Shown in pieces: positions 1 through 39,694 of a DNA stretch of 39,694 bases. The stretch covers positions 1-39,694 of IMG/VR virus record IMGVR_UViG_3300045988_158434, one strand, 5' to 3'. The stretch's first letter is position 1. The number at the start of each line of letters is the position of its first letter. The stretch comes from a virus. Under the pieces are notes generated by a model. It did no database searches. It was not told the DNA's origin and saw nothing but the letters and a program-made list of their open reading frames with translations. A program made the position numbers and the translations under genes.

Positions 1-510
1 GTAGTCGCCGAGTTCGCAGTCGTCGCCGAGTTTGCAGTAGTTGCCGAGTTCGCAGCATTCGCCGAGTTCGCAGTCGTAGCCGAGTTTGCAGTAGTTGCCG
101 AGTTCGCAGCCGTCGCCGAGTTTGCAGCCGTAGCCGAGTTCGCAGCCGTAGCCGAGTTCGCAGTCGTAGATGAGTTTGCAGTCGTTGCCGAGTTCGCAGC
201 CGTTGCCGAGTCTGCAGTAGTTGCCGAGTTCGCAGTAGTCGCCGAGTTTGCAGCCGTCGCTGAGTTCGCAGCCGTAGCCGAGTTTGCAGCCGTCGCTGAG
301 TTCGCAGCCGTAGCCGAGTTTGCAGTCGTAGATGAGTTTGCAGTCGTTGCCGAGTTTGCAGCCGTTGCCGAGTTTGCAGTAGTTGCCGAGTTCGCAGCCG
401 TCGCCTACCTCAATCCCTCTTTGGGCAAATTCTTCCTCTAATTCGGAAATGTTGGTATACTGAAAAGCTGCCCAACCTATCCCATTGACTTGCAAATAAA
501 CAGTTTTCAT
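1..510 (-). CDS. N-terminal part of the wrap-around gene for Cys-periodic hexapeptide-repeat protein A (253 aa total; continues at 39391..39639)
   Basis: ATG (reverse complement) at 508-510. Translation MKTVYLQVNGIGWAAFQYTNISELEEEFAQRGIEVGDG is followed by 22 in-frame 18-bp units giving the hexads C[E/K/R]LG[N/D/Y][Y/G/D]. The ORF is open to position 1 and is not in the ORF track because it crosses the window edge. Confidence 0.6.
   Translation of the reverse strand, partial: MKTVYLQVNGIGWAAFQYTNISELEEEFAQRGIEVGDGCELGNYCKLGNGCKLGNDCKLIYDCKLGYGCELSDGCKLGYGCELSDGCKLGDYCELGNYCRLGNGCELGNDCKLIYDCELGYGCELGYGCKLGDGCELGNYCKLGYDCELGECCELGNYCKLGDDCELGDY
2..397. repeat. 22 tandem 18-bp units (5-nt variable spacer + gccgagttYgcag) inside gene A
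   Basis: Direct reading of the sequence. Units differ only at the 5-nt spacer, at ttc/ttt/tct, and twice at gccgag to gctgag or gatgag. Confidence 0.9.
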
Positions 511-2641: not shown

Positions 2642-4020
2642 ATATCAATTTAGACATACCGCTTAATCCGAAACAAGTGGAAATGTACAATCGTCTGAAC
2701 GACGATAAGTACAACGAATGCCTGTTTTATGGGTCGAGCCGGTCGGGCAAAACATTTCTGATATTATTCTGGATGATATCCCAATCTGTTATTCGTAAAG
2801 CCAACTGCCTGATTTTAAGAAATGTTCTTACTTCATTGCAGACGGGTATGATCCGTCAGACATTGCCTGCCGTTCTGAAATCTATCGCTTCTCACAACGG
2901 GCTGAATAAGGTAGAGGATTTGGTTGCGCCGAATGGTAAGCGATTTTGCGTGTACGACAAGAAGGAGAATATACTGCGCTTTTTCAACGGGGCATATATT
3001 CAGTTCGGGGCTATACGGGGATCGTCGGACGTATCGAGCACATACGACAAGATACTATCCACTGAATGGGGCCATATCTTCGTAGACGAATGTTCTGAAG
3101 TAGACGAGTTGGCTATCGACACCTTGCGGACGCGACTGGCGCAAAAGCTCGACGTGACCAATAAGATGATCTATGCGCTGAACCCGACAACCAAGTCGCA
3201 CTGGACATACGTCCGCTTCTTTAAGAGGGAAAATCGGGAGGGCCTGAAGCTCGAACCGGCCGTGACGGATCGATTCTTGGTCGTTCATTTTTCGGTGCTG
3301 GACAATCGAGAATATCTTTCGGCGGATTATGTAAATACCCTGTCCCAGCTTTCCGCCTTGCAGCGCAAGCGTTTCCTCTCGGGAGAATACAGCGACGAGA
3401 GCGAGGGAGAAATATTCGATCATATACCTTGGGGGCCTGTCCCGAGCCAGCTTTTCGACTGCCTGATATATACGGACCCGTCGGCAAAAGATAACGAGTC
3501 GTGCGACTACAAGGCATCCGTGTTGCTGGCGTCGGCCGCCGATAAGATATACTTGCTGGGCGTCAAGGCCGTAAAAGGGACTTCGCTGCAAATGATGTAC
3601 AATATCTTCGAGCTGTTCAAGATGTCTCCCGTTCCGCCGCGCATCGTCATGGAGAAAAAGCAAGTGCCTCTCGACTTCGACACGACTTTCGCCCGATTCC
3701 AAAGCGAGACCGGATGGAACTGTCCGCTGACGTGGGATACTCGCAATAACGGGAATAAGTTTATGAATATCGAGTCCACGCTCGAACCCCTCTTTCGCAA
3801 CGGCCGCTTCATCGTCAACGAGGAACTGAAGGGCTCGCCCGAGGGAGAATTGCTCGTCGAGCAGTTCATATTCTTTTCCCGCAAATACAACAAAAACCGA
3901 AAGGACGATATTCCCGACGCTACCGCAAAGGGCGCGTCTCTGTTAAACCGTGAAATGACATCGATGAAATTCACGCAATGGCCCATGTTCTACCGAAGGG
4001 GAACCCGAGTAACTTTTTGA
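2638..4020 (+). CDS. terL: terminase large subunit
   Basis: Walker A GSSRSGKT, Walker B FVDECSEVDE, and a C-terminal nuclease-like region (CLIYTDPSAKD...). Confidence 0.85.
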   Translation: MNINLDIPLNPKQVEMYNRLNDDKYNECLFYGSSRSGKTFLILFWMISQSVIRKANCLILRNVLTSLQTGMIRQTLPAVLKSIASHNGLNKVEDLVAPNGKRFCVYDKKENILRFFNGAYIQFGAIRGSSDVSSTYDKILSTEWGHIFVDECSEVDELAIDTLRTRLAQKLDVTNKMIYALNPTTKSHWTYVRFFKRENREGLKLEPAVTDRFLVVHFSVLDNREYLSADYVNTLSQLSALQRKRFLSGEYSDESEGEIFDHIPWGPVPSQLFDCLIYTDPSAKDNESCDYKASVLLASAADKIYLLGVKAVKGTSLQMMYNIFELFKMSPVPPRIVMEKKQVPLDFDTTFARFQSETGWNCPLTWDTRNNGNKFMNIESTLEPLFRNGRFIVNEELKGSPEGELLVEQFIFFSRKYNKNRKDDIPDATAKGASLLNREMTSMKFTQWPMFYRRGTRVTF

Positions 4021-4024
4021 CGCT

Positions 4025-4441
4025 ATGATACTTTCTCCCATGTATTTTGAAAAAGACCAGCTAAAGCAATGGCTTAGCGCACAACAGATAGCGCAGTTCG
4101 AGGGCATGTACTCCGACATCGTACAGACAGCGTACGAGAATGCTTTGGGACTTCTCTATTCCGAGGTAGGTCACATACTCGATCTGGATACCATGCTTTC
4201 CGAGACGAATCCCGACAAGAAGGATCCTACGCTGAAATGGGTGCTGCTCGTGATGACCGCCTTCAACATCGCATCCCCTTCGCTCAATGTCTCCGAGCCT
4301 CTGCGATACAACTACGAAAAAGTGCTCGCAAAGGTGAACGAGCTCAAAAGCGGCATGAGTTCGATATACGAGGCTCCGACCAAGAGCGAGCCGAACGCAC
4401 TCCCGCAAATGGTTTCCGTTCGAAACAAGTACATCGGATAA
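4025..4441 (+). CDS. hypothetical protein
   Basis: ORF between terL and the portal gene. Confidence 0.4.
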   Translation: MILSPMYFEKDQLKQWLSAQQIAQFEGMYSDIVQTAYENALGLLYSEVGHILDLDTMLSETNPDKKDPTLKWVLLVMTAFNIASPSLNVSEPLRYNYEKVLAKVNELKSGMSSIYEAPTKSEPNALPQMVSVRNKYIG

Positions 4442-21111: not shown

Positions 21112-23595
21112 ATGGCACTGAAACCCATACGCGAAATGCAATACGCCGAGAATATCGGCAATCCGGTATTTATAACCGACTTGGCCGTTTTGTCTCAGAA
21201 TATAGTAGAGCTCAAGGCCGCTATCAATATGTTCGGAAAGACTACGGCCATTATCTACGGCTTCGACAAAACGGAAGGCGGATATACTCCCGGCATCGTA
21301 CTCCATAACAAGCAGCTATATTCCTATGCTGCGGGGGATGTCATTCCTGCCAATACCTATCTGCACTCGGTCGTTCAGCAGACCACGCCGCGCATATTGG
21401 AGAACGGCTCCACATTCAATGCGTATGTCGAATATACGTTTATCGCCAACAGCACATCCACGGGCGACGACCTGATTACCTCGGAGCCACTGACCGACGA
21501 TTATGTCGCCGAGCTCAAGAATGCCGCGCAAGGTATTCCGCCCATAACTACCGATATGATCGCCGACGGAGCCGTGACAGCCGCAAAGATCGCAGACGGG
21601 GTTATTCCTGATGTTCCGAGCTCCCTGCCTCCGTCCGGCGCTGCCGGTGGCGATTTGACCGGGACCTATCCTAACCCGACTATCGGCACCGGGAAAGTGA
21701 CAACCGCAAAGATCGCCGACGGAGCCGTGACAGCCGCAAAGATCGCAGACGGGGTTATTCCTGATGTTCCGAGCTCCCTGCCTCCGTCCGGCGCTGCCGG
21801 TGGCGATTTGACCGGGACCTATCCTAACCCGACTATCGGCACCGGGAAAGTGACAACCGCAAAGATCGCCGACGGAGCCGTGACAGCCGCAAAGATCGCA
21901 GACGGGGTTATTCCTGATGTTCCGAGCTCCCTGCCTCCGTCCGGCGCTGCCGGTGGCGATTTGACCGGGACCTATCCTAACCCGACTATCGGCACCGGGA
22001 AAGTGACAACCGCAAAGATCGCCGACGGTGCCGTGACAGCCGCAAAACTGGCTGAACAGTATATTGTGAACCGGGGTGCTATTGCTAACTTGAATAACGC
22101 CACGACTTACGGATTCTATACCTACGATGCAACTACGCAGAACACGCCTACTTCTTACGGCAGCGTCATTGTCGTCGAAGGAACCGGGAGATCAGGAAAT
22201 TGGATACAGTTGGCCTTAGGATATTCTGCGGGCAATGTCAATCCGTCCGTTTTTGTCCGTTTCCGGCAAAGTCTGGAATCTTGGAGCGACTGGGTTAAAG
22301 TATGGAAATCCAATGATTTCAATCCGGACGACAAATTCGGGTTCAGCGCCGCTCAGCTCTCGGATTTGAACAATGCCCCGAACAATGCCTTCTTTGTCGG
22401 CGCACACAACGCGGCGAACGCTCCGGTTGCAGATAGTTGGTGCAATGGATTTACTATCGCTTATGGCAATAACCCCGATTTCCGCAAACAGTTCTGCTAT
22501 GCAGGCGACAAGTGGTGGACAAGAGGTCGAAACGGTACAACGTGGTCCAGTTGGAGCCAGATTTGGGATTCGGGAAACCTCACCCCGTCGTCTTTTGCTC
22601 AAACCAAAAAGGAGATCTTTCCCAGCGGCGGAATAGACAACATTACGGATTCAGATTTTACTGGGAATATACAGGCGCGTTTTCCGGAGAGAGAATATTC
22701 AAGCATCTGGCAGGGGAAGGATTTTATAGGTACGATTCTGCAACTCAAGTTGCGGGACTATGCCAACGAGCAATCCTTGATGTATCGTGGAAGCAAAACA
22801 AAAACATGGCTGAGGGTTTGGGACTCGGGTAACTTCAATCCATCCGATTATTTGTCGAAAGAGAATACAACGGTCTACGTGCCGACCGGAGAATACAACC
22901 CGGCTACAAAAGGGTATGTCGATTCGGCTGTGGAGAATGGAAGTATGAAGAAAGTTAATACCACTAATCTGAATACGCTTATTTCAAAGGGTACGTGCTT
23001 TTTCCAATTTGCCGCATCGACGACGAACGCTCCTATGCCTCAAGGAGGCGGAGGACTTCAAATAGTACTTACCGATAAAATCATACAGTTCGTTACCATT
23101 TTCTACTCGACATCATATGCCGGCCCTTCTTTCTATCGTACTTCCAATACGGCTTCAGCATCCACATTCTCCCCGTGGAGTTGCTTTGCGGAAAACAGCG
23201 ATTTCGGACAGAACGTCTATTTTGAACAACAATTAGACGCGACGCATTTCAACGACGCACCCGTTGTCAAGAAGCTCGTCAAAGGATCGTATACCAATAA
23301 ATACGGGCCTGCAACTGTTGCACTGGATAACTATGCCTCGACTCAATTCCCGGGAACGTACTCCCAATATGCGCCTATCGCTTTTCGCGGGTACGCTAAG
23401 TTCACGAACTATTCCACCAAAGCGACTTTGGCTATCGTACCCGTTAACAGCCAAAGTAATAATAACTATGCATTTTTTACCTATGTCAATCCGTCATCGA
23501 TATACCAAGTTATGGCCAATTTCACAGGCGGTTCGGCAACTGTTCGGGAACAAGTGGATTACTGGGTAGAAATAACCTATGGCAAAGTGGTATAA
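21112..23595 (+). CDS. tail fibre protein 2 (827 aa) with a 3 x 51-aa perfect tandem repeat
   Basis: Shared N-terminal domain. Repeat unit TAKIADGAVTAAKIADGVIPDVPSSLPPSGAAGGDLTGTYPNPTIGTGKVT x3. Long divergent C-terminal domain. Confidence 0.6.
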   Translation: MALKPIREMQYAENIGNPVFITDLAVLSQNIVELKAAINMFGKTTAIIYGFDKTEGGYTPGIVLHNKQLYSYAAGDVIPANTYLHSVVQQTTPRILENGSTFNAYVEYTFIANSTSTGDDLITSEPLTDDYVAELKNAAQGIPPITTDMIADGAVTAAKIADGVIPDVPSSLPPSGAAGGDLTGTYPNPTIGTGKVTTAKIADGAVTAAKIADGVIPDVPSSLPPSGAAGGDLTGTYPNPTIGTGKVTTAKIADGAVTAAKIADGVIPDVPSSLPPSGAAGGDLTGTYPNPTIGTGKVTTAKIADGAVTAAKLAEQYIVNRGAIANLNNATTYGFYTYDATTQNTPTSYGSVIVVEGTGRSGNWIQLALGYSAGNVNPSVFVRFRQSLESWSDWVKVWKSNDFNPDDKFGFSAAQLSDLNNAPNNAFFVGAHNAANAPVADSWCNGFTIAYGNNPDFRKQFCYAGDKWWTRGRNGTTWSSWSQIWDSGNLTPSSFAQTKKEIFPSGGIDNITDSDFTGNIQARFPEREYSSIWQGKDFIGTILQLKLRDYANEQSLMYRGSKTKTWLRVWDSGNFNPSDYLSKENTTVYVPTGEYNPATKGYVDSAVENGSMKKVNTTNLNTLISKGTCFFQFAASTTNAPMPQGGGGLQIVLTDKIIQFVTIFYSTSYAGPSFYRTSNTASASTFSPWSCFAENSDFGQNVYFEQQLDATHFNDAPVVKKLVKGSYTNKYGPATVALDNYASTQFPGTYSQYAPIAFRGYAKFTNYSTKATLAIVPVNSQSNNNYAFFTYVNPSSIYQVMANFTGGSATVREQVDYWVEITYGKVV
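21571..22040. repeat. 3 perfect tandem copies of a 153-bp unit (plus a partial fourth) inside fibre gene 2
   Basis: Unit starts at 21571, 21724 and 21877 and the copies are identical. Confidence 0.9.
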
Positions 23596-29360: not shown

Positions 29361-29423
29361 CAGTTATTAAGAATTACTTAATAACTGGCAGATTTTCAGT
29401 TGTCAATTATTATTTGACAACTG
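29361..29423. promoter_or_regulatory. twin 27-bp palindromes with shared CAGTT...AACTG half-sites (putative operators)
   Basis: cagttattaag-N5-cttaataactg (29361-29387) and cagttgtcaa-N7-ttgacaactg (29397-29423), 9 bp apart in the 114-bp intergenic gap. A tttaatgttt direct repeat (29341-29360) is adjacent. Confidence 0.45.
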
Positions 29424-29436
29424 GAGGATGAAGCTG

Positions 29437-30081
29437 TCATTTATCCCGCACGCAACGCACGCTGAAGCCGAGGGTGATAAGGTTGATTTCCAACGGGCTG
29501 ACGCCGATCGAGCCTAAATGTAGTCTACCCGCATAGTCGCCTCTTTCGTCGTCCATCGACGAGGACCAATAGTAGCCGGTGAGACTCGTGCCGGCCAACT
29601 TTGCGCAATAGCCGAGGTCATTAGAATAGCCGAAGCCCGCAGCAGGCAGAAACAACGAGCCCTTGTGGTCTGTATCATGGTTACCTCCGAACCAACGGCC
29701 CTTAAGCTCATCGTCCCAAGTCGAGCCGAGATCGCATAATGCCTTCAATTCCTCCCGGGTCGGCAAGCGCTTCCCGACAGACTTCGCGGCATCCATTGCA
29801 TCCTCCCATGTGTAGTAATGGCGGCCGTCCTTCTCGTAACCGCCGATGGCCAAATTCTCTGTGTCCCACAGCAGGCCGCAAAGCTCTATGGAGTCGGACT
29901 CGGGATCGGACGCAGAATCGGCCGCAACCGGATTATCCTCCCTCCATTGAGCGCCGGTAATGAACCCGTCTATCCATTCATTGTGGCAAGCTTTATCTAT
30001 CATGTTGTAGATGGTCTTATCGTAATCCTCACCCAAACGAATCGGGCACAGTGCCTCGGCTACTTCACGTAATGTTTTCAT
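29437..30081 (-). CDS. Fibrobacter succinogenes major paralogous domain (Fib_succ_major) protein
   Basis: The C-terminal half, ...GKRLPTREELKAL...LPAAGFGYSN...GYYWSSS...GFSVRCVRDK, matches the TIGR02145-type signature. Confidence 0.5.
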   Translation of the reverse strand: MKTLREVAEALCPIRLGEDYDKTIYNMIDKACHNEWIDGFITGAQWREDNPVAADSASDPESDSIELCGLLWDTENLAIGGYEKDGRHYYTWEDAMDAAKSVGKRLPTREELKALCDLGSTWDDELKGRWFGGNHDTDHKGSLFLPAAGFGYSNDLGYCAKLAGTSLTGYYWSSSMDDERGDYAGRLHLGSIGVSPLEINLITLGFSVRCVRDK

Positions 30082-30302
30082 AATCGTCTCAATTTTTCAA
30101 TTTCCCTATTCTTGTCATCGATTACCTTGCGGGCTATTTCCTCGCGCTGCTTCGACTCGTCGAGGCAGATTTTCAGTTTGGCTATTTCTGCCTTCAGTTG
30201 ACGGATTTCCTCTTGGTATTCGTTTTCCGGACCGTATCTCCACTCAGGGAAAGAGTCGTCTGTTTGTAGGTAGCTCATACCTAATCCTGTCATCAGTTTC
30301 AT
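30078..30302 (-). CDS. hypothetical coiled-coil protein
   Basis: ORF; heptad-like EIRQLKAEIAKLK. Confidence 0.35.
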   Translation of the reverse strand: MKLMTGLGMSYLQTDDSFPEWRYGPENEYQEEIRQLKAEIAKLKICLDESKQREEIARKVIDDKNREIEKLRRL

Positions 30303-30303
30303 A

Positions 30304-31188
30304 TTATCGACTTAATTTCTCGTAAGCGTTGATCGTCTCGAATATCCGCAGCGCTACCTGCGGCACTATGGCGTTGCCGTAGGCTTTGACGGATTCCCTG
30401 CACCATGCAGGAAAGGTAACTCCGTCCAATCCGGCGGAAAGCCCATCATCTCTGCTAAGAACCGGGGATTGAGTCGGAAACCCGCTCCAGTCCGGTATTC
30501 GTCGCTCCGCATAGCCGTTTTCACCATTCCGCCATCTCTTTTGGCCTGACTCGGCGGGAGTGAAACGTTCCTCGCGTCGTTGGCTGTCGGCGTATGCAGG
30601 AGCCGCATCGGCATGAAGACCGTCTTCCCTTTGACACATATCTTCAGACCCTGAGTCTGCTCGGTGGGCAACAAACCACACCCTGTCCCTGCGATGGGGA
30701 GCGTCGACACCGCAAGCCGGAAGTACGAACGGTTGGACTTCGTAGCCCTCATTTTCCATGTCAGAACACACCTGCTCGAAAACCAGTCCCTCCGACCAAT
30801 CAATAATTCCGGGAACGTTTTCGCCCACGACCCAGCGGGGACGAATCTCCCGAATAGCTCCAAGCATCTCCGGCCAGAGATAGCGGTCATCTCCCGTGCC
30901 TTTTCTCTTACCGGCGACGCTGAACGGCTGGCACAGCTACGGGAACCCTCCGGTAAGGACAATGTCCTCATTCCTCCAGAGGGTTCCGTATCGTTTTGAA
31001 AGTTCAACGTCAATTGTCTCATAAGTCAAGGTGTGTATATCATCGTGATGGTATGCTTCGGGAAAGTGATACTGTAGTACCCGCCGACAAAAATTGTCTA
31101 TTTCACAAGTAACGAGCGTCCTCCATCCCGCCCAATGCGCGGCGAGGGCAAATCCTCCTATTCCCGAAAATAAATCTATGTGTATCAT
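30304..31188 (-). pseudogene. C5-cytosine DNA methyltransferase in one reading frame, interrupted by a single in-frame TAG inside the catalytic PCQ motif
   Basis: Motif I DLFSGIGG (ORF 30937..31188) ends ...GGFP, then TAG (30934-30936), then LCQPFS...ENV...QPFVLPACGVDAPHRRDRVWFV...GNAIVPQVA (ORF 30304..30867). All parts are in the same frame. Confidence 0.6.
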
Positions 31189-31586
31189 TTTCTTCGTTCA
31201 ATTTGATGCCTTCGCGTGTGTTCCGCTTTTGGGAAGCAAACTAAATTATCCCGGCGATTATCGGATTTATCCCCGTTGATATGATGGACATCCCAACCGT
31301 CCGGTATATCGCATATTTCTTTTTCCCAAACGTAACGATGCATCAAACATCTGTCATCGGTAGTTAAAGCATAATAACCATGATTCCGCAGGGTGAATTT
31401 TTTGCCATCGTAAATTTGGTAGTCAGAAGGTGCAGGAGTTCGCAACTTTAACCCTCGCTTTTTGAATGCCTTATATACACATTGCCTTGTAACGCCTATG
31501 CTCTTGGCTGTTTCTGCCAACGACATCCCTTTTGCGTACATCTCGACATATGCCTTGTCGTATATTGAATTTCTATGCGCTCCCAT
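31185..31586 (-). CDS. HNH endonuclease with an N-terminal HTH
   Basis: HRYVWEKEICDIPDGWDVHHINGDKSDNRRDNL is an HNH motif; MSLAETAKSIGVTRQCVYKAFKK is an HTH. Confidence 0.7.
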   Translation of the reverse strand: MGAHRNSIYDKAYVEMYAKGMSLAETAKSIGVTRQCVYKAFKKRGLKLRTPAPSDYQIYDGKKFTLRNHGYYALTTDDRCLMHRYVWEKEICDIPDGWDVHHINGDKSDNRRDNLVCFPKAEHTRRHQIERRK

Positions 31587-31589
31587 AAT

Positions 31590-32042
31590 TCAACAGTTTT
31601 TCAATGCCATTTCAAGTCTTGATTCAGTGGATTTACATTCGCCGGAATAGGCGCGTGAGAACTCGATGAACTCCGAAAGGAGGCCACAGGAAAGAATGAA
31701 CGCATAAGCCTCATTCTTGGGGTTCATTTCGATCTGGAATTTAGAATAGATGGATTCGCTCGTCTCGTGAGCCGGACGGTTTGATCTGGATGTAGTTTTC
31801 CCATTCAAACGCTTTTTCTCTGTGCAAGTCATAACAGATAATAGTGTTTGTTTAGTGGCATGAAAAAACGGCGCCACTGACCCGTTGACTTGCACCTTGA
31901 AGGCAGTCGGGCCATTAAGCACCGACACGGGGGTAGCGCCGTGTATATGCAGCGACAGGGCATAAAAAATGCCCGCTGCGAACAGGCAGAATATTCTGCC
32001 TTCAAGTATGCAAGTCGCTACAAATATACTCCAGTTTTTCAT
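31590..32042 (-). CDS. hypothetical protein (hydrophobic N-terminus)
   Basis: ORF. Confidence 0.3.
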   Translation of the reverse strand: MKNWSIFVATCILEGRIFCLFAAGIFYALSLHIHGATPVSVLNGPTAFKVQVNGSVAPFFHATKQTLLSVMTCTEKKRLNGKTTSRSNRPAHETSESIYSKFQIEMNPKNEAYAFILSCGLLSEFIEFSRAYSGECKSTESRLEMALKNC

Positions 32043-32124
32043 TTTTACAAAATTTATCGGTTTCTCTTATGCCATTCTGCGGCCAGATCGAAGCCGCCGA
32101 CACCGGAAAAAAGAGATGCGTGGG

Positions 32125-32334
32125 TCATGGCTTCAGCTTGTAATGCCCCCTGTCGTTTCGTATCAAGACCCCCTTTCGTACCAGTCGCAAGCAGATAGGG
32201 GAAGCCCAACAGCTATGGTGCGCTCCTCTATATCCGAAGGTTCGAGCGTGTTCCAAACCTATTGCCGACGGAGACACATAATCTTTGTCTTTGAGGTAGG
32301 CTATTATCCACTCCTCGTTTTTCGTCAGTTTCAT
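32125..32334 (-). CDS. hypothetical small protein (possible winged helix)
   Basis: The ORF-track version starts with TTG at 32406; the internal ATG at 32334 is used here. Confidence 0.25.
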   Translation of the reverse strand: MKLTKNEEWIIAYLKDKDYVSPSAIGLEHARTFGYRGAHHSCWASPICLRLVRKGVLIRNDRGHYKLKP

Positions 32335-33951: not shown

Positions 33952-34152
33952 TCAGTATTCTTTATCCAGTTTTTTCCGTATTCTCGCCGAAGGCAGGACG
34001 GGATATTGGGATATGTCGACAAACAGCACCCCATCTATATTTTCGGCTTTTATCTTTCCTAATGCTATTCTTTTCTTGACGCCGTTATAGGTTATTCCGG
34101 ACATCATGGCGTAAGTTTTCAGCCGGATCAGAACTTTCTCATCTTCCATCAT
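33952..34152 (-). CDS. small HTH protein (Xis/MerR-like)
   Basis: AMMSGITYNGVKKRIALGKI is a helix-turn-helix. Confidence 0.4.
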   Translation of the reverse strand: MMEDEKVLIRLKTYAMMSGITYNGVKKRIALGKIKAENIDGVLFVDISQYPVLPSARIRKKLDKEY

Positions 34153-34988
34153 TCATTCGTAATTTTTGCTACTATTTCGTCTACTTCCTTTTTTTCCGCC
34201 TCTTTGGCATCGACGCCATCCACATATATCGGATCGCAGGACTCTATGTCTTCGGAACTGGGAACGGATTGGTCGAATTTCAGCGCCGCCGTTATCTTGG
34301 GTTGCTGTTGGGGGTTGATCGGGCACCACTTTTTAATAATGCTTTTCAACACCGTCTTTTGCCCCATAGCTACGAAATCCGTTTGCCACAATCCATTCTC
34401 CCTGTAGAATGATTTGGAATACTTTGCCCCGTGAGTCTTGCATTCGTCCACCGTCATGTACAGATAGAAGTCCGCACCGGTCATCAGCTTCAGGTAAGAG
34501 ACGAATCCGTTCAGTATCGACCTGTCCGGATTGTTTAGATTGAATCGCATGTCGCCCGTAAAGGGATTTATTGCCTCGATGTCCCCTTCGTACACGTTAG
34601 CCACATTGATACGCGCTACGTTGCCCGTCCTGTGGGCGAGTTGCACATATCCGTTCTTCATTATCTGGAACTGCGCGACTCCACCGTAGGGAACCAATGC
34701 CGCCTGTCCCAGATTGGTATCTATCGACAGATTCGTATACGCCGCAACCAAAGAGGACCGGATAATCGATGTGGGATCGGCTTTCATCAGCAGCTTATTG
34801 TTTGTCGTGGCCGACAATATCGACTGCATAAAAGAGGGTGCGTACTCCCCCAACATCATCTCGAACCGCTTTTTGGTTTCCTCGTGGAACAGCGTTTTTT
34901 TTAGCTGCGTTAAAAACGATTGAGAGGCTATATACGGAGATCTCGACCTTCCCATCGAGGCCCGTGCCAATTCTTTTTCAGTTTCCAT
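34149..34988 (-). CDS. recT: RecT-family single-strand annealing recombinase
   Basis: AALVPYGGVAQFQIMKNGYVQLAHRTGNVARINVANVYEGD is the RecT core. Confidence 0.75.
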   Translation of the reverse strand: METEKELARASMGRSRSPYIASQSFLTQLKKTLFHEETKKRFEMMLGEYAPSFMQSILSATTNNKLLMKADPTSIIRSSLVAAYTNLSIDTNLGQAALVPYGGVAQFQIMKNGYVQLAHRTGNVARINVANVYEGDIEAINPFTGDMRFNLNNPDRSILNGFVSYLKLMTGADFYLYMTVDECKTHGAKYSKSFYRENGLWQTDFVAMGQKTVLKSIIKKWCPINPQQQPKITAALKFDQSVPSSEDIESCDPIYVDGVDAKEAEKKEVDEIVAKITNE

Positions 34989-34993
34989 AGCCG

Positions 34994-36205
34994 TTATTTT
35001 AGCCCTAACTTGATCTTGATCACTTCGGCAATAGCCATGTACTGCCTTTCGAATTCATTTCCCTGATGTGTCTTTTTGACTTGTTCCTCGAACTCTTCAA
35101 TAGAACCCCGAAAGCATCCGCAGATGATTTCAACTTTCCCTGATTGAGTTTTATAGGCATGGGTGTGACGATTAGCAGACCCAAAACAATCAAATCCACA
35201 ATGTTCATTATTATTTGACACCTTAGCATCGCCGGACACCTGAGCATTGCCGGACACCTTAGCATCGCCGGACACCCAAGCATTGCCGGACACCTGAGCA
35301 TCGCCGGACACCTGAGCATTGCCGGACACCTGAGCATTGCCGGACACCCAAGCATCGCCGGACACCTTAGCATCGCCGCACACCTGAGCATTGCCGTACA
35401 CCTTAGCATCGCCGTACACCCAAGCATCGTCGTACACCTTAGCATCGCCGGACACCTGAGCATCGCCGTACACCTGAGCATTGCCGTACACCTTAGCATC
35501 GCCGTACACCCAAGCATCGCCGGACACCTGAGCATTGCCGGACACCTGAGCATCGCCGGACACCCAAGCATTGCCGCACACCCAAGCATCGCCGCACACC
35601 TGAGCATTGCCGTACACCTTAGCATCGCCGCACACCTTAGCATTGCCGTACACCTTAGCATCGCCGGACACCCAAGCATTGCCGGACACCTTAGCATCGC
35701 CGGACACCTTAGCATCGCCGGACACCTGAGCATTGCCGGACACCCAAGCATCGCCGGACACCTGAGCATTGCCGTACACCTTAGCATTGCCGTACACCTT
35801 AGCATCGCCGCACACCTTAGCATTGCCGTACACCTTAGCATTGCCGTACACCTTAGCATCGCCGTACACCCAAGCATCGCCGGACACCTGAGCATTGCCG
35901 GACACCTGAGCATCGCCGGACACCCAAGCATTGCCGCACACCCAAGCATCGCCGCACACCTGAGCATTGCCGTACACCTTAGCATCGCCGGACACCTGAG
36001 CATCGCCGGACACCTGAGCATCGCCGGACACCTGAGCATTGCCGCACACCCAAGCATCGCCGGACAGGTTATCTTCTTTTTCAATATACCCACCAAGATC
36101 ACCTACATCGGCATGCTTGATTTTACGCGTGCATTTGATTTGTAACAACTTAATACCAAACGCGTTGATTATAAATTTGTCCGTTAATTCGAAATGTTTG
36201 TCCAT
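34994..36205 (-). CDS. hexapeptide-repeat protein B: about 48 tandem G[D/N]A[Q/K/W]V[S/Y/C] hexads with N- and C-terminal caps homologous to protein A
   Basis: 403-aa ORF with a near-perfect 18-bp DNA array at 35215-36065. N-terminal ...INAFGIK...ADVGDLGG and C-terminal ...IICGCFRGSIEEFEEQVKK align with protein A's VNGIGWAAF...IEVGDG and IQIGCKKHTISEWQKHFRE. Confidence 0.6.
   Translation of the reverse strand: MDKHFELTDKFIINAFGIKLLQIKCTRKIKHADVGDLGGYIEKEDNLSGDAWVCGNAQVSGDAQVSGDAQVSGDAKVYGNAQVCGDAWVCGNAWVSGDAQVSGNAQVSGDAWVYGDAKVYGNAKVYGNAKVCGDAKVYGNAKVYGNAQVSGDAWVSGNAQVSGDAKVSGDAKVSGNAWVSGDAKVYGNAKVCGDAKVYGNAQVCGDAWVCGNAWVSGDAQVSGNAQVSGDAWVYGDAKVYGNAQVYGDAQVSGDAKVYDDAWVYGDAKVYGNAQVCGDAKVSGDAWVSGNAQVSGNAQVSGDAQVSGNAWVSGDAKVSGNAQVSGDAKVSNNNEHCGFDCFGSANRHTHAYKTQSGKVEIICGCFRGSIEEFEEQVKKTHQGNEFERQYMAIAEVIKIKLGLK
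35215..36065. repeat. about 47 tandem 18-bp units (gcatYgccgKacacc-YRa-) inside gene B
   Basis: Direct reading. Higher-order duplicated blocks are visible. Confidence 0.9.
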
Positions 36206-36296: not shown

Positions 36297-36569
36297 CTAC
36301 GACAGGTAGGGATCATTCTTGAGCCTCATGAGGTCGAAGTCGTTGGCAACCTCACCTTCGGGCAAGTAGGTTTTCAAATCGGCCGAGACGATGAACAGTC
36401 TGGGCTCCTTGAAGCGACCTTCGTAAATCATCACGGATATATTCAGATTGCTATAAAATCTGTCCGTGTTGTATTTGATCGTAGCGCAGAAGTCTCCCGG
36501 ATACTCACATGATTTGTCCTCGACCAGCATCGCCAACTGGTAGTAATCTTCGTTTGTCAAACGTATCAT
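36297..36569 (-). CDS. hypothetical protein
   Basis: ORF between repeat gene B and the exonuclease. Confidence 0.35.
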   Translation of the reverse strand: MIRLTNEDYYQLAMLVEDKSCEYPGDFCATIKYNTDRFYSNLNISVMIYEGRFKEPRLFIVSADLKTYLPEGEVANDFDLMRLKNDPYLS

Positions 36570-36574
36570 AATGT

Positions 36575-37504
36575 CTATTTAAATTTCAGCATTCTGTAAC
36601 TCGATTCTACCGTGCATTCGCTGACTATGTTCGGATATTTCAATCTCAGCATTTCCGTATCCAGCTTTTTGCGGCAATAGGATTTAAAGGTGGCGATAGT
36701 GGTTCCCTCGTACTCCATGCTGTCCTGCTCTCCGAATCTTAGGATCATCTCGCCCTCTATCTCCTTTTTCTCTCGCTCCAGTACCTTGATCGCCTTATTC
36801 AGTTTCCCCAGACGCTCGTACCTCGAAAACATATCTTTCCCTACCCTCACGATACCTTCCTTGCTCTCCGGGTATGTTTCCCGAATGTCCTGCGCAGTGG
36901 TAGGTTCCGGTTGTTCGCCCCCGATTATGTGCTTCTGAAACCAGTCGGTCGCCTTGCGCATATTCGTGAGCGTCCAATCTTTATCGAAAGTATAATGTCC
37001 GTATTTAAGCTCTTTTCTACCGTCGCAAATGACCAGAAAGGCGTTTTTTCGGCCCATCACGGCCATTTGAAACTGGACCTGCGCATACCACTCTTTCGGA
37101 ATGCTATCTGCGTCCATATCGTCTATTATTCGCTTCGTGTCTTTTATCTCCACCACCGGACGGTCCTCCCATTCCTGTTTGAATGCCTCCCGATCCGGCG
37201 AGCATTCCACGAAGTCCGGGAACTCGTCGTTGGTATACACATCGTATGATGCCGAGCGCTTTATAATCTCGCAACCGGTCTCGCTCTCGAACCATTTGGC
37301 AATCGCATCCTCCATGAATATCCCCCGGTGCATATTCGCGTTCATCTCATCGCTTCCCTTCGTCTTGCGCTCCCAATACTGCAAAGGCGTAACGTACTCG
37401 CTCAAGCCGAGTATTATCCCGAAATCCGAGCTGCCGAGAACCGGCCGGCTCTCCCTGCGCTCCAGCCATTCCGCTCTGGTTTTAAATGTCTCTTTCCGTA
37501 TCAT
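36575..37504 (-). CDS. YqaJ-like (lambda Exo family) recombination exonuclease
   Basis: VLGSSDFGIILGLSEYVTPLQYWERKTKG...NMHRGIFMEDAIAKWFESETGCEI...VEIK matches the YqaJ PD-(D/E)xK signature. Confidence 0.75.
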   Translation of the reverse strand: MIRKETFKTRAEWLERRESRPVLGSSDFGIILGLSEYVTPLQYWERKTKGSDEMNANMHRGIFMEDAIAKWFESETGCEIIKRSASYDVYTNDEFPDFVECSPDREAFKQEWEDRPVVEIKDTKRIIDDMDADSIPKEWYAQVQFQMAVMGRKNAFLVICDGRKELKYGHYTFDKDWTLTNMRKATDWFQKHIIGGEQPEPTTAQDIRETYPESKEGIVRVGKDMFSRYERLGKLNKAIKVLEREKKEIEGEMILRFGEQDSMEYEGTTIATFKSYCRKKLDTEMLRLKYPNIVSECTVESSYRMLKFK

Positions 37505-37980: not shown

Positions 37981-38553
37981 TTACATTCCTTTGCATTCGA
38001 CAAATTCCCCGTTCTTGAGCCTGTAAAAAGTGTTTACTTTAATGCGGTCGCCGTCTACCTGCGTACTTTTCACATCTATCACTTTCTTTGATCGGCACTC
38101 GGCCAACACAAGCCAGCATCCTAATGCCCCTTTAGCTTTTGAGCGCCATCCGATAGATATGGCGACAGACTGATCCCCCGAGACAATCGCCTCGGTGCCT
38201 TTTTTCGTAGTGACGGCTACCGATCTGTTTTTTTCGGATACGATGCTTTTAGATGTGTTTATACCTTCCCTAATGATTTTTTCTGCGGCCTCGGCAATAT
38301 CGTCCAGCCCCATATCCTCAATCACACGCAATTCCGATGTATTTACATGGTGCCCCTGCTTGTCTGCCTTATTGTCCGGGCTTTCAACTCGGGAGTATCC
38401 GCTATCACATGGCGGATAGTACCTTAAAACATCCAGCGGATTATCGAAAAATGATAATTTGCCGCCAATTACGGGGCGTCGTGTGTAAACACGCCCAACT
38501 TCTAACCGTAATTTATTGTCTTTGTAATTTTCAAAACCTATATACCCTTCCAT
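37981..38553 (-). CDS. hypothetical protein
   Basis: ORF. Confidence 0.35.
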   Translation of the reverse strand: MEGYIGFENYKDNKLRLEVGRVYTRRPVIGGKLSFFDNPLDVLRYYPPCDSGYSRVESPDNKADKQGHHVNTSELRVIEDMGLDDIAEAAEKIIREGINTSKSIVSEKNRSVAVTTKKGTEAIVSGDQSVAISIGWRSKAKGALGCWLVLAECRSKKVIDVKSTQVDGDRIKVNTFYRLKNGEFVECKGM

Positions 38554-39390: not shown

Positions 39391-39694
39391 TTATTTCTGC
39401 TTGACATTCCACCTGCCGTGAAGTTTGGCAATAAGGTCTATATAAGACCCATATTCATCGATTTGCTCCTCAGAATAACCTTCAGCCTTCCCAATTTCGC
39501 GGAAATGCTTTTGCCACTCCGAAATAGTATGTTTTTTACAACCTATTTGGATAGCATCGTACCCCCAGTATGAAACGGAGTGCTGGGAGGCCGATATGAA
39601 TAATGATTTAGGTACTTTGCAGCCGTAGCCGAGTTCGCAGTAGTCGCCGAGTTCGCAGTCGTCGCCGAGTTTGCAGTAGTTGCCGAGTTCGCAG
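39391..39694 (-). CDS. C-terminal part of repeat protein A (stop TAA, reverse complement, at 39391-39393)
   Basis: Reading the - strand from the repeat units at the window end gives ...CELGYGCKVPKSLFISASQHSVSYWGYDAIQIGCKKHTISEWQKHFREIGKAEGYSEEQIDEYGSYIDLIAKLHGRWNVKQK*. The frame is continuous with the 1..510 segment once the 55-bp terminal overlap is collapsed. Confidence 0.6.
   Translation of the reverse strand, partial: CELGNYCKLGDDCELGDYCELGYGCKVPKSLFISASQHSVSYWGYDAIQIGCKKHTISEWQKHFREIGKAEGYSEEQIDEYGSYIDLIAKLHGRWNVKQK
39640..39694. repeat. 55-bp terminal redundancy identical to 1..55 (circular-contig overlap)
   Basis: A 55/55 exact match between the window start and end. A gene reads across the junction. 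Confidence 0.8.

What the first reader, a model, noticed from the sequence alone, without database searches (positions are those of the whole stretch)
34994..36205. A second, paralogous tandem-hexapeptide gene inserted between RecT and the YqaJ exonuclease
The 403-aa protein is about 48 hexads G[D/N]A[Q/K/W]V[S/Y/C], encoded by an 18-bp array with internal higher-order duplications. Its N-cap (INAFGIK...ADVGDLGG) and C-cap (IICGCFRGSIEEFEEQVKK) align with those of the wrap-around protein (VNGIGWAAF...IEVGDG; IQIGCKKHTISEWQKHFRE). The phage therefore carries two paralogues with different repeat alphabets but a shared scaffold. Gene B splits the normally adjacent RecT / YqaJ-exonuclease pair. 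The Asp/Asn-decorated hexapeptide solenoid is reminiscent of DNA-mimic beta-helices (for comparison, pentapeptide-repeat proteins). An anti-defence decoy or a recombination-associated function are both plausible, and I cannot tell which from sequence.
Basis: partly seen in the sequence, partly recalled or inferred. Interest (0 to 1): 0.8.

Follow-up and report, generated by a model that had tools for sequence, protein, structure and literature searches.

The report
Length-variable capped beta-solenoid phage protein
This early phage gene encodes a rod-shaped repeat protein from a large phage family of unknown function, and its 18-bp repeat array changes greatly in length (2 to at least 47 units) between nearly identical phages.

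Summary
The ORF is real: window 34994-36205 (-), 403 aa. It has a 48-aa N-cap, 47 perfect hexads G[DN]A[QKW]V[SYC], and a 73-aa C-cap.

It belongs to a known, uncharacterised phage family: the Pfam YdcK beta-solenoid repeat, PHROGs 7964/5070/20532, and relatives of Sfi19 orf229. Homologues occur in phages of many phyla.

The main new result concerns array length. Phages about 98% identical in the flanks carry the gene at the same YqaJ-orf90-B-RecT locus with only 2-6 hexads. Two other samples carry at least 35 and at least 42 hexads, each interrupted by an assembly gap. The exact count of 47 is therefore uncertain, but long alleles are real.

The wrap-around gene A (252 aa, 23 hexads) shares a homologous C-cap (hhalign P=1.2e-5; chimeric architectures exist). 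Its N-cap shows no detectable similarity, and its repeats are a different hexapeptide subtype. A and B are distant relatives, not recent paralogues.

Linkage to RecT/YqaJ is specific to this lineage. SSAPs lie downstream within 4 kb in 7 of 44 non-redundant loci, with 5 weaker upstream matches.

Charge (net -11) gives no support for DNA mimicry, and no enzyme signature is present.

Best reading: an accessory early protein in which conserved caps are joined by an unstable, variable-length beta-helix spacer. Its function is unknown and probably involves host interaction.

The parts
34994..36205 (-). Gene B: 403-aa capped beta-solenoid protein (YdcK-type repeat; PHROG 7964/5070/20532)
   Evidence: ORF list. 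Pfam PF18836 9.5e-48 and PHROG 7964 8.7e-166. PDB YdcK 2f9c E=3.4e-16.
36062..36205 (-). N-cap, residues 1-48 (MDKHFELTDKFIINAFGIKLLQIKCTRKIKHADVGDLGGYIEKEDNLS). Homologous to the N-terminus of YdcK.
   Evidence: Cap-only PHROG hits to 20149/5070/7964. The alignment to 2f9c starts at residue 22. AF2 pLDDT 79-88 in the short allele. pN/pS about 0.2.
35216..36061 (-). Array of 47 in-frame 18-bp units encoding G[DN]A[QKW]V[SYC]. Only 4 of the 18 nucleotide positions vary.
   Evidence: TRF. Hexad and codon tables. AF2 pLDDT 80-92, with a regular strand every 6 residues.
35477..35630 (-). First copy of the 154-bp exact higher-order repeat. The second copy is at 35837-35990, offset 360 bp (20 hexads).
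   Evidence: Exact-repeat scan.
35837..35990 (-). Second copy of the 154-bp exact higher-order repeat.
   Evidence: Exact-repeat scan.
34994..35215 (-). C-cap, residues 331-403 plus stop (…HCGFDCFGSANRHTHAYKTQSGKVEIICGCFRGSIEEFEEQVKKTHQG…). A small alpha/beta domain with no assigned fold.
39391..39694 (-). Gene A, 3' part: the end of the array plus the C-cap and stop. Continues from window 56-510 across the circular junction.
   Evidence: Circularisation. PHROG 5353 and 32789.
56..510 (-). Gene A, 5' part: N-cap and most of the 23-hexad array C[EKR]L[GIS]xx. Bases 1-55 duplicate 39640-39694.
   Evidence: Pfam Hexapep 1.4e-36.
34149..34988 (-). RecT-family single-strand annealing protein, immediately downstream of gene B.
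   Evidence: Pfam RecT 2.3e-32 and PHROG 148.
36297..36569 (-). 90-aa ORF of unknown function between YqaJ and gene B. Conserved in the sister phages.
   Evidence: No Pfam, PHROG or NCBIfam hit.
36575..37504 (-). YqaJ/RecE-like recombination exonuclease, upstream of gene B.
   Evidence: Pfam YqaJ 8.8e-20 and PHROG 434 1.8e-53.

Best explanation
Gene B is an accessory early protein of a temperate-type tailed phage, probably of Alistipes or another Bacteroidales host. It belongs to the widespread 'gp229/YdcK-like' family.

Architecture: a conserved N-terminal cap and a conserved C-terminal alpha/beta cap are joined by a non-enzymatic beta-helix built from perfect hexads.

Array dynamics: the helix is encoded by an 18-bp tandem array that expands and contracts in whole units, so the reading frame is kept. 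The mechanism is inferred to be slippage or unequal recombination, and the phage's own RecT/exonuclease is a plausible driver. Near-identical phages therefore carry rods from less than one turn (2 hexads) to about 16 turns (47 hexads).

Variation within the array: it sits only at the three outward-facing residues of each hexad. It comes from a small alphabet inherited from a few founder units and reshuffled.

Function (inferred, low confidence): the activity lies in the caps, with the solenoid acting as a variable-length spacer or display surface. The C-cap in particular also occurs alone and on other solenoid types. The role is probably a dispensable host-interaction, counter-defence or host-takeover function, rather than catalysis, DNA mimicry or an obligatory step of RecT/YqaJ recombination.

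Gene A is a distant relative. It has a homologous C-cap on a canonical hexapeptide helix and is co-transcribed in the same early operon.
For: Shown:
- Family membership and YdcK homology, including the N-cap.
- Homologues in 91 phage records across many host phyla and 586 IMG/VR stretches. They are rare on plasmids: 10 of 72,556 records.
- Sister phages about 98% identical in the flanks carry the gene at the same locus with 2-6 hexads. The 3-hexad allele is on at least 24 contigs, some from k=141 assemblies. There a 54-bp array must be spanned by real k-mers, so the short alleles are genuine.
- Independent scaffolds carry at least 35 and at least 42 hexads, each with a 100-N gap.
- Family lengths range from 105 to 442 aa, and 15 of 80 contigs end inside the array.
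- Only 4 of 18 nucleotide positions vary, and every variant changes the amino acid.
- The family-wide consensus is G-[ND]-A-[RQWEK]-V-[SYFC].
- Codons for the invariant G, A and V differ between lineages but are 95% uniform within an array. This indicates concerted evolution together with a protein-level constraint.
- The caps are under purifying selection, pN/pS about 0.2.
- AF2 models the array as a regular solenoid with pLDDT 80-92.
- The A and B C-caps are homologous.
- B-type N-cap and repeats occur fused to the A-type C-cap. Stand-alone C-caps and a period-5 repeat carrying the same C-cap also exist.
- Neighbours are early and DNA-metabolism genes: methylases, SSB, antirepressors and SSAPs.
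- Published precedent for hexad-number alleles: PMC3296602.
Against: - No experiment or annotation gives a function for any family member.
- The claim that function lies in the caps and the helix is a spacer is inference only.
- Some family members lack a C-cap (BF10P2_39, L030, L063) or are split by frameshifts (Vibrio phage 1.139.B). The caps may therefore not be essential, or these copies may be decaying.
- The high surface content of Trp, Tyr and Phe could mean that the solenoid surface itself is the functional part.
- The exact length of this allele depends on a short-read assembly.
Confidence: 0.5

Rival explanations
1. DNA-mimic or anti-defence decoy. The Asp/Asn-decorated solenoid imitates DNA and sequesters a host nuclease or DNA-binding defence protein, as pentapeptide-repeat proteins, Ocr or ArdA do.
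For: - The gene sits in an early operon beside recombination genes, where lambda carries gam (own knowledge).
- In other phages the neighbours often include DNA methylases: 9 of 115 downstream ORFs.
- Cap-sized structural matches occur in phage proteins annotated as pentapeptide-repeat proteins.
- The array is mildly acidic, pI 4.25.
Against: - Net charge is only -11 over 403 aa.
- In relatives the variable position 4 is Arg in 29% of hexads and Trp in 23%.
- The commonest alleles in the sister phages have 2-6 hexads, at most two helical turns, which is too short to imitate a DNA duplex.
- There is no match in PADLOC.
Confidence: 0.12
2. Accessory recombination factor. The protein works with the flanking YqaJ exonuclease and RecT, for example as an end-protection or loading factor.
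For: - It lies between YqaJ and RecT here and in all sister phages.
- In cultured phages, homologues sit just upstream of four different SSAP families: RecT in Javan174, Gam-like plus Rad52 in phiRM10, Gam-like plus Sak4 in Sfi19, and ERF in phiNJ2.
Against: - In 44 non-redundant IMG/VR loci, SSAP families were found within 4 kb downstream in 7, with 5 matches upstream, of which the two RecT hits are weak.
- None of the 80 closest IMG/VR relatives has window-like RecT/YqaJ flanks.
- Gene A and many relatives lie elsewhere.
- A 20-fold length polymorphism is hard to reconcile with a stoichiometric partner.
Confidence: 0.12
3. Assembly artefact. The 47-hexad array is an over-expanded or chimeric path through a repeat graph, and the true allele is short like those of the sister phages.
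For: - The window ends overlap by exactly 55 nt, which suggests a k=55 short-read assembly.
- The array contains exact repeats of 154 and 59 nt.
- Two other long alleles could only be scaffolded with 100-N gaps.
- The exact protein is not on record elsewhere.
Against: - 691 of the 796 55-mers in the array are distinct, so roughly 700 bp or more of distinct array sequence must exist in the reads.
- Independent samples carry at least 35 and at least 42 hexads at the same locus.
- Family members with 20-45 hexads are common.
- 15 of 80 contigs break inside the array.
- This rival concerns the exact count (about 0.35 chance it is wrong) more than the existence of a long allele (about 0.1 chance it is not long).
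Confidence: 0.1
4. Bactofilin-like polymer. The protein self-assembles into filaments that organise phage replication or perturb the host cytoskeleton.
For: - The Pfam Bactofilin score is 61.8 bits, above the 27.9 cut-off.
- Several homologues are annotated 'polymer-forming cytoskeletal protein'.
- The surface is rich in aromatic residues.
Against: - The YdcK-repeat model scores far higher (156 bits) and the N-cap aligns to YdcK.
- Both helix ends carry folded caps. From own knowledge of bactofilin end-to-end assembly, this would be expected to block polymerisation.
- The Bactofilin match is most simply a periodicity match.
Confidence: 0.08
5. Hexapeptide-repeat acyltransferase. This is the annotation given to some homologues.
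For: Some phage records name homologues 'putative acyltransferase' or 'transferase'. Weak NCBIfam matches to LpxA, GlmU and NeuD repeat regions exist.
Against: - Pfam Hexapep scores 12.9 bits against a cut-off of 27 for gene B.
- All enzyme-family scores are 5- to 20-fold below their cut-offs.
- The array consists of perfect hexads with no inserted loops or extra domain that could form an active site.
- Length varies from 2 to 47 hexads.
Confidence: 0.03

Closest known systems
YdcK (Salmonella/E. coli; PDB 2f9c, 2pig; Pfam PF18836 B_solenoid_ydck; NCBIfam NF040481)
   Different: Gene B scores 109 bits against the YdcK equivalog cut-off of 350. YdcK is a chromosomal 326-aa protein with irregular repeats. 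Gene B has perfect, recently amplified hexads and a different, phage-specific C-cap.
Phage 'gp229-like' proteins: S. thermophilus phage Sfi19 orf229, Ruminococcus phage phiRM10 gp34, Streptococcus Javan prophages, and Liberibacter prophage CLIBASIA_05650 (PHROGs 7964/5070/20532)
   Same: Full-length architecture of N-cap, G[ND]AxVx hexads and a C-cap with the GCF…EF core. Located in the early region. Intragenic hexad-number alleles (18 versus 22) are published for CLIBASIA_05650 (PMC3296602).
   Different: The range of lengths among near-identical genomes is far larger here (2 to at least 47). This copy sits between YqaJ and RecT. The Bacteroidales subfamily has extra conserved Cys/His residues (HCGFDC…RHTH…CGC…TH) that are absent from the streptococcal ones.
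Gene A family (PHROG 5353/32789): canonical hexapeptide helices carrying the 'GSRHxVxYWGxDxIxIGCxxxTIxEW…' C-terminal domain
   Same: Homologous C-cap: hhalign prob 81%, P=1.2e-5. Same plan of cap, solenoid and cap. Same length instability: 126-156 aa in the sister phages against 252 aa here. Chimeric proteins exist with a B-type N-cap and repeats fused to an A-type C-cap.
   Different: Different repeat family (PF00132, with the Gly in a different register). The N-caps are unrelated. The A-type C-cap has no conserved Cys/His cluster.
Pentapeptide-repeat DNA mimics (Qnr, MfpA). The comparison is from own knowledge.
   Same: A repeat-encoded beta-helix with Asp/Asn at a fixed repeat position. 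Some phage pentapeptide-repeat proteins appear to carry a similar cap domain.
   Different: The period is 6, not 5. The charge is only mildly acidic. The length is very variable. No functional evidence exists.
NeuO, the prophage CUS-3 polysialate O-acetyltransferase (PMC3046976, abstract seen)
   Same: A prophage-encoded hexapeptide-repeat protein whose gene contains a variable-number tandem repeat.
   Different: NeuO is a true enzyme with phase-variable expression (per that abstract). Here the variable repeat is the helix itself, all changes are in frame, and there are no enzyme features.

Membership tests
YdcK-type beta-solenoid repeat (Pfam PF18836) | Repeat matches above Pfam's gathering score | tested here: met
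   156.4 bits against a cut-off of 30, in 8 stretches, E=9.5e-48.
YdcK family proper (NCBIfam NF040481, equivalog) | Whole-protein score at or above the curated cut-off of 350 bits | tested here: not met
   109.1 bits. The short allele P0003 scores 28 bits.
YdcK family proper | N-terminal region homologous to that of the solved YdcK structure | tested here: met
Phage gp229-like proteins (PHROG 7964/5070/20532) | Full-length profile match including both caps | tested here: met
   PHROG 7964 8.7e-166. The caps alone also match: N-cap 8e-9 to 7964 and 5e-10 to 5070; C-cap 2.7e-23 to 20532.
Hexapeptide-repeat acyltransferases (LpxA/GlmU/NeuD-like) | Pfam Hexapep above the gathering score, and an enzyme-family model above its cut-off | tested here: not met
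   Gene B scores 12.9 bits on Hexapep against a cut-off of 27. The best enzyme model is NeuD at 37.6 bits against 160.8. Gene A passes Hexapep (123 bits), but its enzyme models score at most 58 bits against cut-offs above 200.
Hexapeptide-repeat acyltransferases | Trimer with active sites at subunit interfaces, formed by loops or an extra domain | not testable with these tools
   No oligomer modelling was available. The sequence shows 47 uninterrupted perfect hexads with no inserted loops.
Bactofilin (Pfam PF04519) | Domain score above the gathering threshold | tested here: met
   61.8 bits against 27.9. This is weaker than, and overlaps with, the YdcK-repeat match, so I read it as a periodicity match.
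Bactofilin | Polymerisation through uncapped helix ends | not testable with these tools
   Both ends carry folded caps in the AF2 model of the short allele. No assembly test was possible.
Pentapeptide-repeat DNA mimics (Qnr/MfpA) | Five-residue repeat period | tested here: not met
   The period is 18 bp, or 6 residues.
DNA-mimic proteins in general | Strongly anionic surface that imitates the phosphate backbone | tested here: inconclusive
   Net charge is -11 over 403 aa. The array has pI 4.25 but contains 17 Lys. Relatives have 29% Arg at position 4.
Paralogy of gene A and gene B | Significant profile-profile similarity of the C-caps | tested here: met
   hhalign prob 81%, P=1.2e-5, score 29.1 over 51 columns. 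The reversed control scores 9.9 and 40 column-shuffled controls score at most 12.6.
Paralogy of gene A and gene B | Significant similarity of the N-caps | tested here: not met
   BLASTP finds no alignment. hhalign gives P=0.04 over 10 columns, prob 1.3%.

The most novel reading that the evidence does not exclude
The 18-bp arrays of genes A and B act as contingency loci. In-frame expansion and contraction, possibly driven by the phage's own RecT/exonuclease, tune the length of a rigid beta-helix. Reshuffling of hexad cassettes over a small Trp/Tyr/Ser/Asp/Asn/Lys/Gln alphabet alters its surface. The helix carries a previously undescribed effector domain, the 'GC…[ST]xxE[FW]' C-cap, which has no Pfam model and has more than 800 clusters at 50% identity. 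Phage populations would thereby hold a standing repertoire of variants of a counter-defence or host-targeting protein.
Probability: 0.12. Interest if true: 0.75.

Novelty: new member of a known kind. Interest (0 to 1): 0.45.

Why it matters
- The family is one of the more common 'hypothetical' early genes of tailed phages, across Firmicutes, Bacteroidota, Proteobacteria and Actinobacteria. No function is known for it, and its C-terminal domain has no Pfam model.
- Near-identical gut phages differ more than 20-fold in the length of this protein, and a second related gene in the same operon behaves the same way. This makes it a clear candidate for an experimentally tractable, rapidly evolving host-interaction factor.
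- It is also a practical warning. These arrays break or collapse short-read assemblies: 15 of 80 contigs end inside them and others carry 100-N gaps. They also produce spurious overlapping ORFs and have been annotated as CRISPR spacers.

Tried and rejected
1. Megablast of 9.7 kb of the window against 50,697 phage records found no match, so there is no cultured close relative.
2. Pairwise BLASTP of the caps and cap-only scans of PHROGs and Pfam gave no cross-family hit. Only profile-profile comparison with broadened alignments gave a signal, and only for the C-cap.
3. The first hhalign run used only Bacteroidales B-type caps and was not significant (P=0.07). The profile needed more diverse members.
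5. I first suspected a conserved link to the recombination module, from five cultured-phage contexts. A census of 44 non-redundant IMG/VR loci and a tblastn for the window's flanking genes did not bear this out.
6. A DNA-level role for the array, such as iterons or an origin, was considered and rejected. Between lineages the amino-acid pattern is conserved while the codons differ.
7. A universal zinc site in the C-cap was considered and rejected. The Cys/His cluster is invariant in the Bacteroidales subfamily but absent from the streptococcal and A-type caps.
8. The 5' region upstream of gene B showed no structure beyond chance (z=-0.02), and promoter and terminator counts matched the shuffles.
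9. PADLOC gave no hit.
10. Literature searches for YdcK, gp229/orf229 and polyvalent-protein solenoids found no functional study.
Full report
**The sequence.** Window 34994-36205 (minus strand) is an intact 403-aa ORF. Tandem Repeats Finder reports an 18-bp array at 35217-36066 with 47.2 copies, 87% matches and score 1112. In protein terms there is a 48-residue N-cap, then 47 uninterrupted hexads G[DN]A[QKW]V[SYC], then a 73-residue C-cap. Only four of the 18 nucleotide positions in the unit vary (nt 4, 10-11 and 17). Apart from three single-unit changes (one Gly-to-Asp, one synonymous Ser codon), all variation changes one of the three alternating residues, D/N, Q/K/W and S/Y/C. Twelve of the 18 possible combinations occur. 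A 154-bp exact repeat at 35477 and 35837 (offset 360 bp, 20 hexads) and a 59-bp repeat at offset 180 confirm the higher-order duplications. The 360-aa ORF in another frame (35020-36102) is a by-product of a stop-free repeat unit.

**The contig and gene A.** The window's first and last 55 nt are identical. It is therefore a circular contig of 39,639 bp, probably from a k=55 assembly, and it was opened inside a second 18-bp array. Removing the overlap gives an intact 252-aa gene A, complement(join(39391..39694, 56..510)). It has 23 hexads C[EKR]L[GIS]xx. The longest exact repeat in the closed A array is 49 nt, shorter than the overlap, so the closure is unambiguous as assembled. The phage encodes a terminase, a Mu-type portal and a DUF2586 protein. 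Close homologues of A and B are named from Alistipes, Phocaeicola and Barnesiella, so the host is probably Bacteroidales.

**Family membership.**
- Gene B matches the Pfam YdcK beta-solenoid repeat (PF18836, 156 bits) and, more weakly, Bactofilin (62 bits). It matches PHROGs 7964, 5070 and 20532 over its full length; all are of unknown function.
- The only solved relative is YdcK (2f9c/2pig, E=3.4e-16), and the alignment starts inside the N-cap.
- Gene B does not reach the NCBIfam YdcK equivalog cut-off (109 versus 350 bits), and no acyltransferase model comes close to its cut-off. PADLOC gives nothing.
- tblastn finds homologues in 91 phage records from Streptococcus, Bacteroides, Vibrio, Xanthomonas, Bacillus, Mycobacterium, Liberibacter and others. 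They are annotated as hypothetical, 'glycerol kinase', 'acyltransferase' or 'polymer-forming cytoskeletal protein'.
- An IMG/VR scan found 586 relatives. Plasmids hold only 10 in 72,556 records.
- The family includes S. thermophilus phage Sfi19 orf229. Through the label 'interrupted gp229' it also includes Liberibacter prophage gene CLIBASIA_05650. That gene's 18-bp/hexapeptide repeats and its alleles with 18 or 22 hexads were described in 2012 (PMC3296602). No paper gives a function.

**Length polymorphism.**
- A search with the C-cap found proteins with 99-100% identical caps but only 133-157 aa.
- Their contigs are sister phages about 98% identical to the window on both sides of the array. 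They have the same order YqaJ, orf90, B, RecT.
- They carry 2, 3, 4, 5 or 6 hexads. The 3-hexad allele is on at least 24 contigs, several from k=141 assemblies. Every 141-mer of such a contig occurs in the reads, and a 54-bp array plus both unique flanks fits within one k-mer. The short alleles are therefore real.
- Two 'truncated' hits are scaffolds in which the same gene has at least 23+12 and at least 29+13 hexads around a 100-N gap.
- Across IMG/VR, complete family members range from 105 to 442 aa (3-45 hexads), and 15 of 80 contigs end inside the array.
- Gene A behaves the same way: 126-156 aa in the sister phages, 204 aa in one, and 252 aa here.
- The window's array has 691 distinct 55-mers out of 796, so it cannot be a loop through a short array. 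Because it contains exact repeats of 154 and 59 nt, the exact number 47 should be treated as provisional.

**Selection.**
- Against other Bacteroidales relatives both caps show pN/pS of about 0.2, with synonymous sites near saturation.
- Over 765 hexads from 44 non-redundant loci the pattern is G-[ND]-A-[RQWEK]-V-[SYFC].
- The codons used for the invariant Gly, Ala and Val differ between lineages (15 dominant triplets among 39 arrays). Within an array they are 95% uniform.
- This is the signature of concerted evolution of an array whose amino-acid pattern, not its DNA sequence, is conserved. It argues against a DNA-level role such as iterons.
- The six hexads of a sister allele already contain every variant state seen in the 47-hexad array. 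Amplification plus recombination within units explains the combinatorial pattern without any special mutational mechanism.

**Structure.**
- With an alignment of 24 short alleles, AF2 gives confident caps (N-cap pLDDT 79-88, C-cap 75-90). The C-cap consists of four short strands followed by two helices.
- The full-length protein, folded from its single sequence, is modelled as a regular solenoid with a two-residue strand every six residues and pLDDT 80-92 over residues 50-300.
- In BFVD the model matches family members. It also gives cap-sized matches to phage proteins annotated as pentapeptide-repeat proteins and to stand-alone proteins of 82-86 aa.
- That the helix is left-handed is inferred from the homology to YdcK and from own knowledge of its classification. 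It was not tested here.

**Are A and B paralogues?**
- Pairwise and sequence-to-profile comparisons of the caps are negative.
- An exhaustive search with the A-type C-cap found 822 cluster representatives. The domain (consensus GSRHxVxYWGxDxIxIGCxxxTIxEW…GYTxEQIxEY) is C-terminal to hexapeptide helices of many flavours, to a period-5 repeat (P0341), or stands alone.
- Eight of the top 150 representatives combine a B-type N-cap and YdcK repeats with the A-type C-cap.
- Once the B-type profile includes diverse phage members, hhalign aligns the two C-caps over 51 columns. Probability is 81%, P=1.2e-5 and score 29.1. The reversed control scores 9.9 and 40 column-shuffled controls score at most 12.6.
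- The shared core is [IV]x[IV]-G/C-C-x3-[ST]-x2-E-[FW] followed by two helices.
- The N-caps show nothing (P=0.04 over 10 columns), and the repeats are of different subtypes (PF18836 versus PF00132).
- A and B are therefore distant members of one modular superfamily, not recent duplicates.

**Context.**
- In five cultured or sister contexts the gene lies just upstream of a single-strand annealing protein, and these come from four different families: RecT, Rad52, Sak4 and ERF.
- A census corrects this impression. In 44 non-redundant IMG/VR loci, ORFs of at least 130 aa within 4 kb downstream include 7 SSAPs (ERF 2, RecT 2, AAA_24 2, Sak 1). Upstream ORFs include 5 (ERF 3, RecT 2 weak).
- The same ORF sets include DNA methylases (9 downstream), SSB, antirepressors and helicases.
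- None of the 80 closest IMG/VR relatives has RecT/YqaJ flanks like those of the window.
- The gene is a mobile accessory cassette of early and DNA-metabolism regions. Its position inside the YqaJ/RecT pair is specific to this lineage.

**Function.** Nothing tested here identifies one.
- The protein is only mildly acidic (net -11, pI 5.0). Relatives carry Arg and Trp at the variable position, and common alleles have less than two helical turns. DNA mimicry is therefore unsupported.
- Enzyme signatures are absent.
- The caps are conserved and modular, and the C-cap occurs on its own.
- My best inference is that the caps carry the activity and the helix is a spacer or display surface of unstable length, in a dispensable early protein that interacts with the host.
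- The aromatic-rich outward positions (Tyr/Phe 48% at position 6, Trp 23% at position 4) leave open that the helix surface itself binds something.
- I put about 0.85 confidence on the structural and evolutionary account. I put about 0.25 on the functional guess.

**Verdict.** The gene is a new, unusually long allele of a known but uncharacterised phage family. The points of interest are the extreme in-frame length polymorphism between near-identical phages, which affects two related genes in one operon, and a widespread C-terminal domain that has no Pfam model and no assigned fold.

Noticed in passing
window 1-55 and 39640-39694: The first and last 55 nt of the window are identical. The contig is therefore circular (39,639 bp), probably from a k=55 assembly, and was opened inside the tandem array of gene A.
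   Followed up: yes
window 21558-22046: A 153-bp tandem repeat (3.2 copies, 99% identical) lies inside the 827-aa ORF 21112-23595. That ORF has a weak DUF5907 repeat match and is probably a tail-fibre-like protein. It is another in-frame (51-aa) repeat that may vary in copy number.
   Followed up: partly
L014 (Vibrio phage 1.139.B, MG592511.1) locus 3453-4256: The homologous 18-bp array is annotated in GenBank as six 'CRISPR spacers'. The gene there is split into two CDS (N-cap plus repeats, and repeats plus C-cap), apparently by a frameshift inside the array. Several other Vibrio phage records carry the same spacer annotation.
   Followed up: partly
window 35020-36102 (-) and short + strand ORFs at 35607-35891: Long ORFs in other frames across the array (for example the 360-aa 'AMLRCPAML…') arise because the repeat unit has no stop codon in those frames. 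In Sfi19 a similar overlapping ORF (orf129) is annotated inside orf229.
   Followed up: yes
L030/L031, L063 and L001 (Bacteroides phage BF10P2 gene 39): Some family members end inside or just after the array (…VCK*) and have no C-cap. One of these is in a cultured, completely sequenced Bacteroides phage. Whether they are functional cap-less variants or decaying copies is not known.
   Followed up: no
P0314 (606 aa) and P0356 (243 aa): The A-type C-cap also occurs twice in a 606-aa protein that has no hexapeptide repeats and no Pfam match. In P0356 it is followed by a LuxR/HTH_23-type helix-turn-helix. These are fusion partners that could hint at its function.
   Followed up: partly
window 37981-38553 (-): A 190-aa protein in the same operon has a weak N-terminal DUF7666 match (below the Pfam cut-off) and a C-terminal region matching PHROGs 27197/4433 of unknown function. 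It is conserved in all the sister phages.
   Followed up: no
L006-L012 versus window about 29400-32300: The sister phages differ from the window by cassette swaps downstream of the replication genes: Lcl_C/Fib_succ_major-like ORFs at only 79-81% identity, and DUF3268 present or absent. The flanks are 97-99% identical. This is a mosaic accessory region.
   Followed up: no
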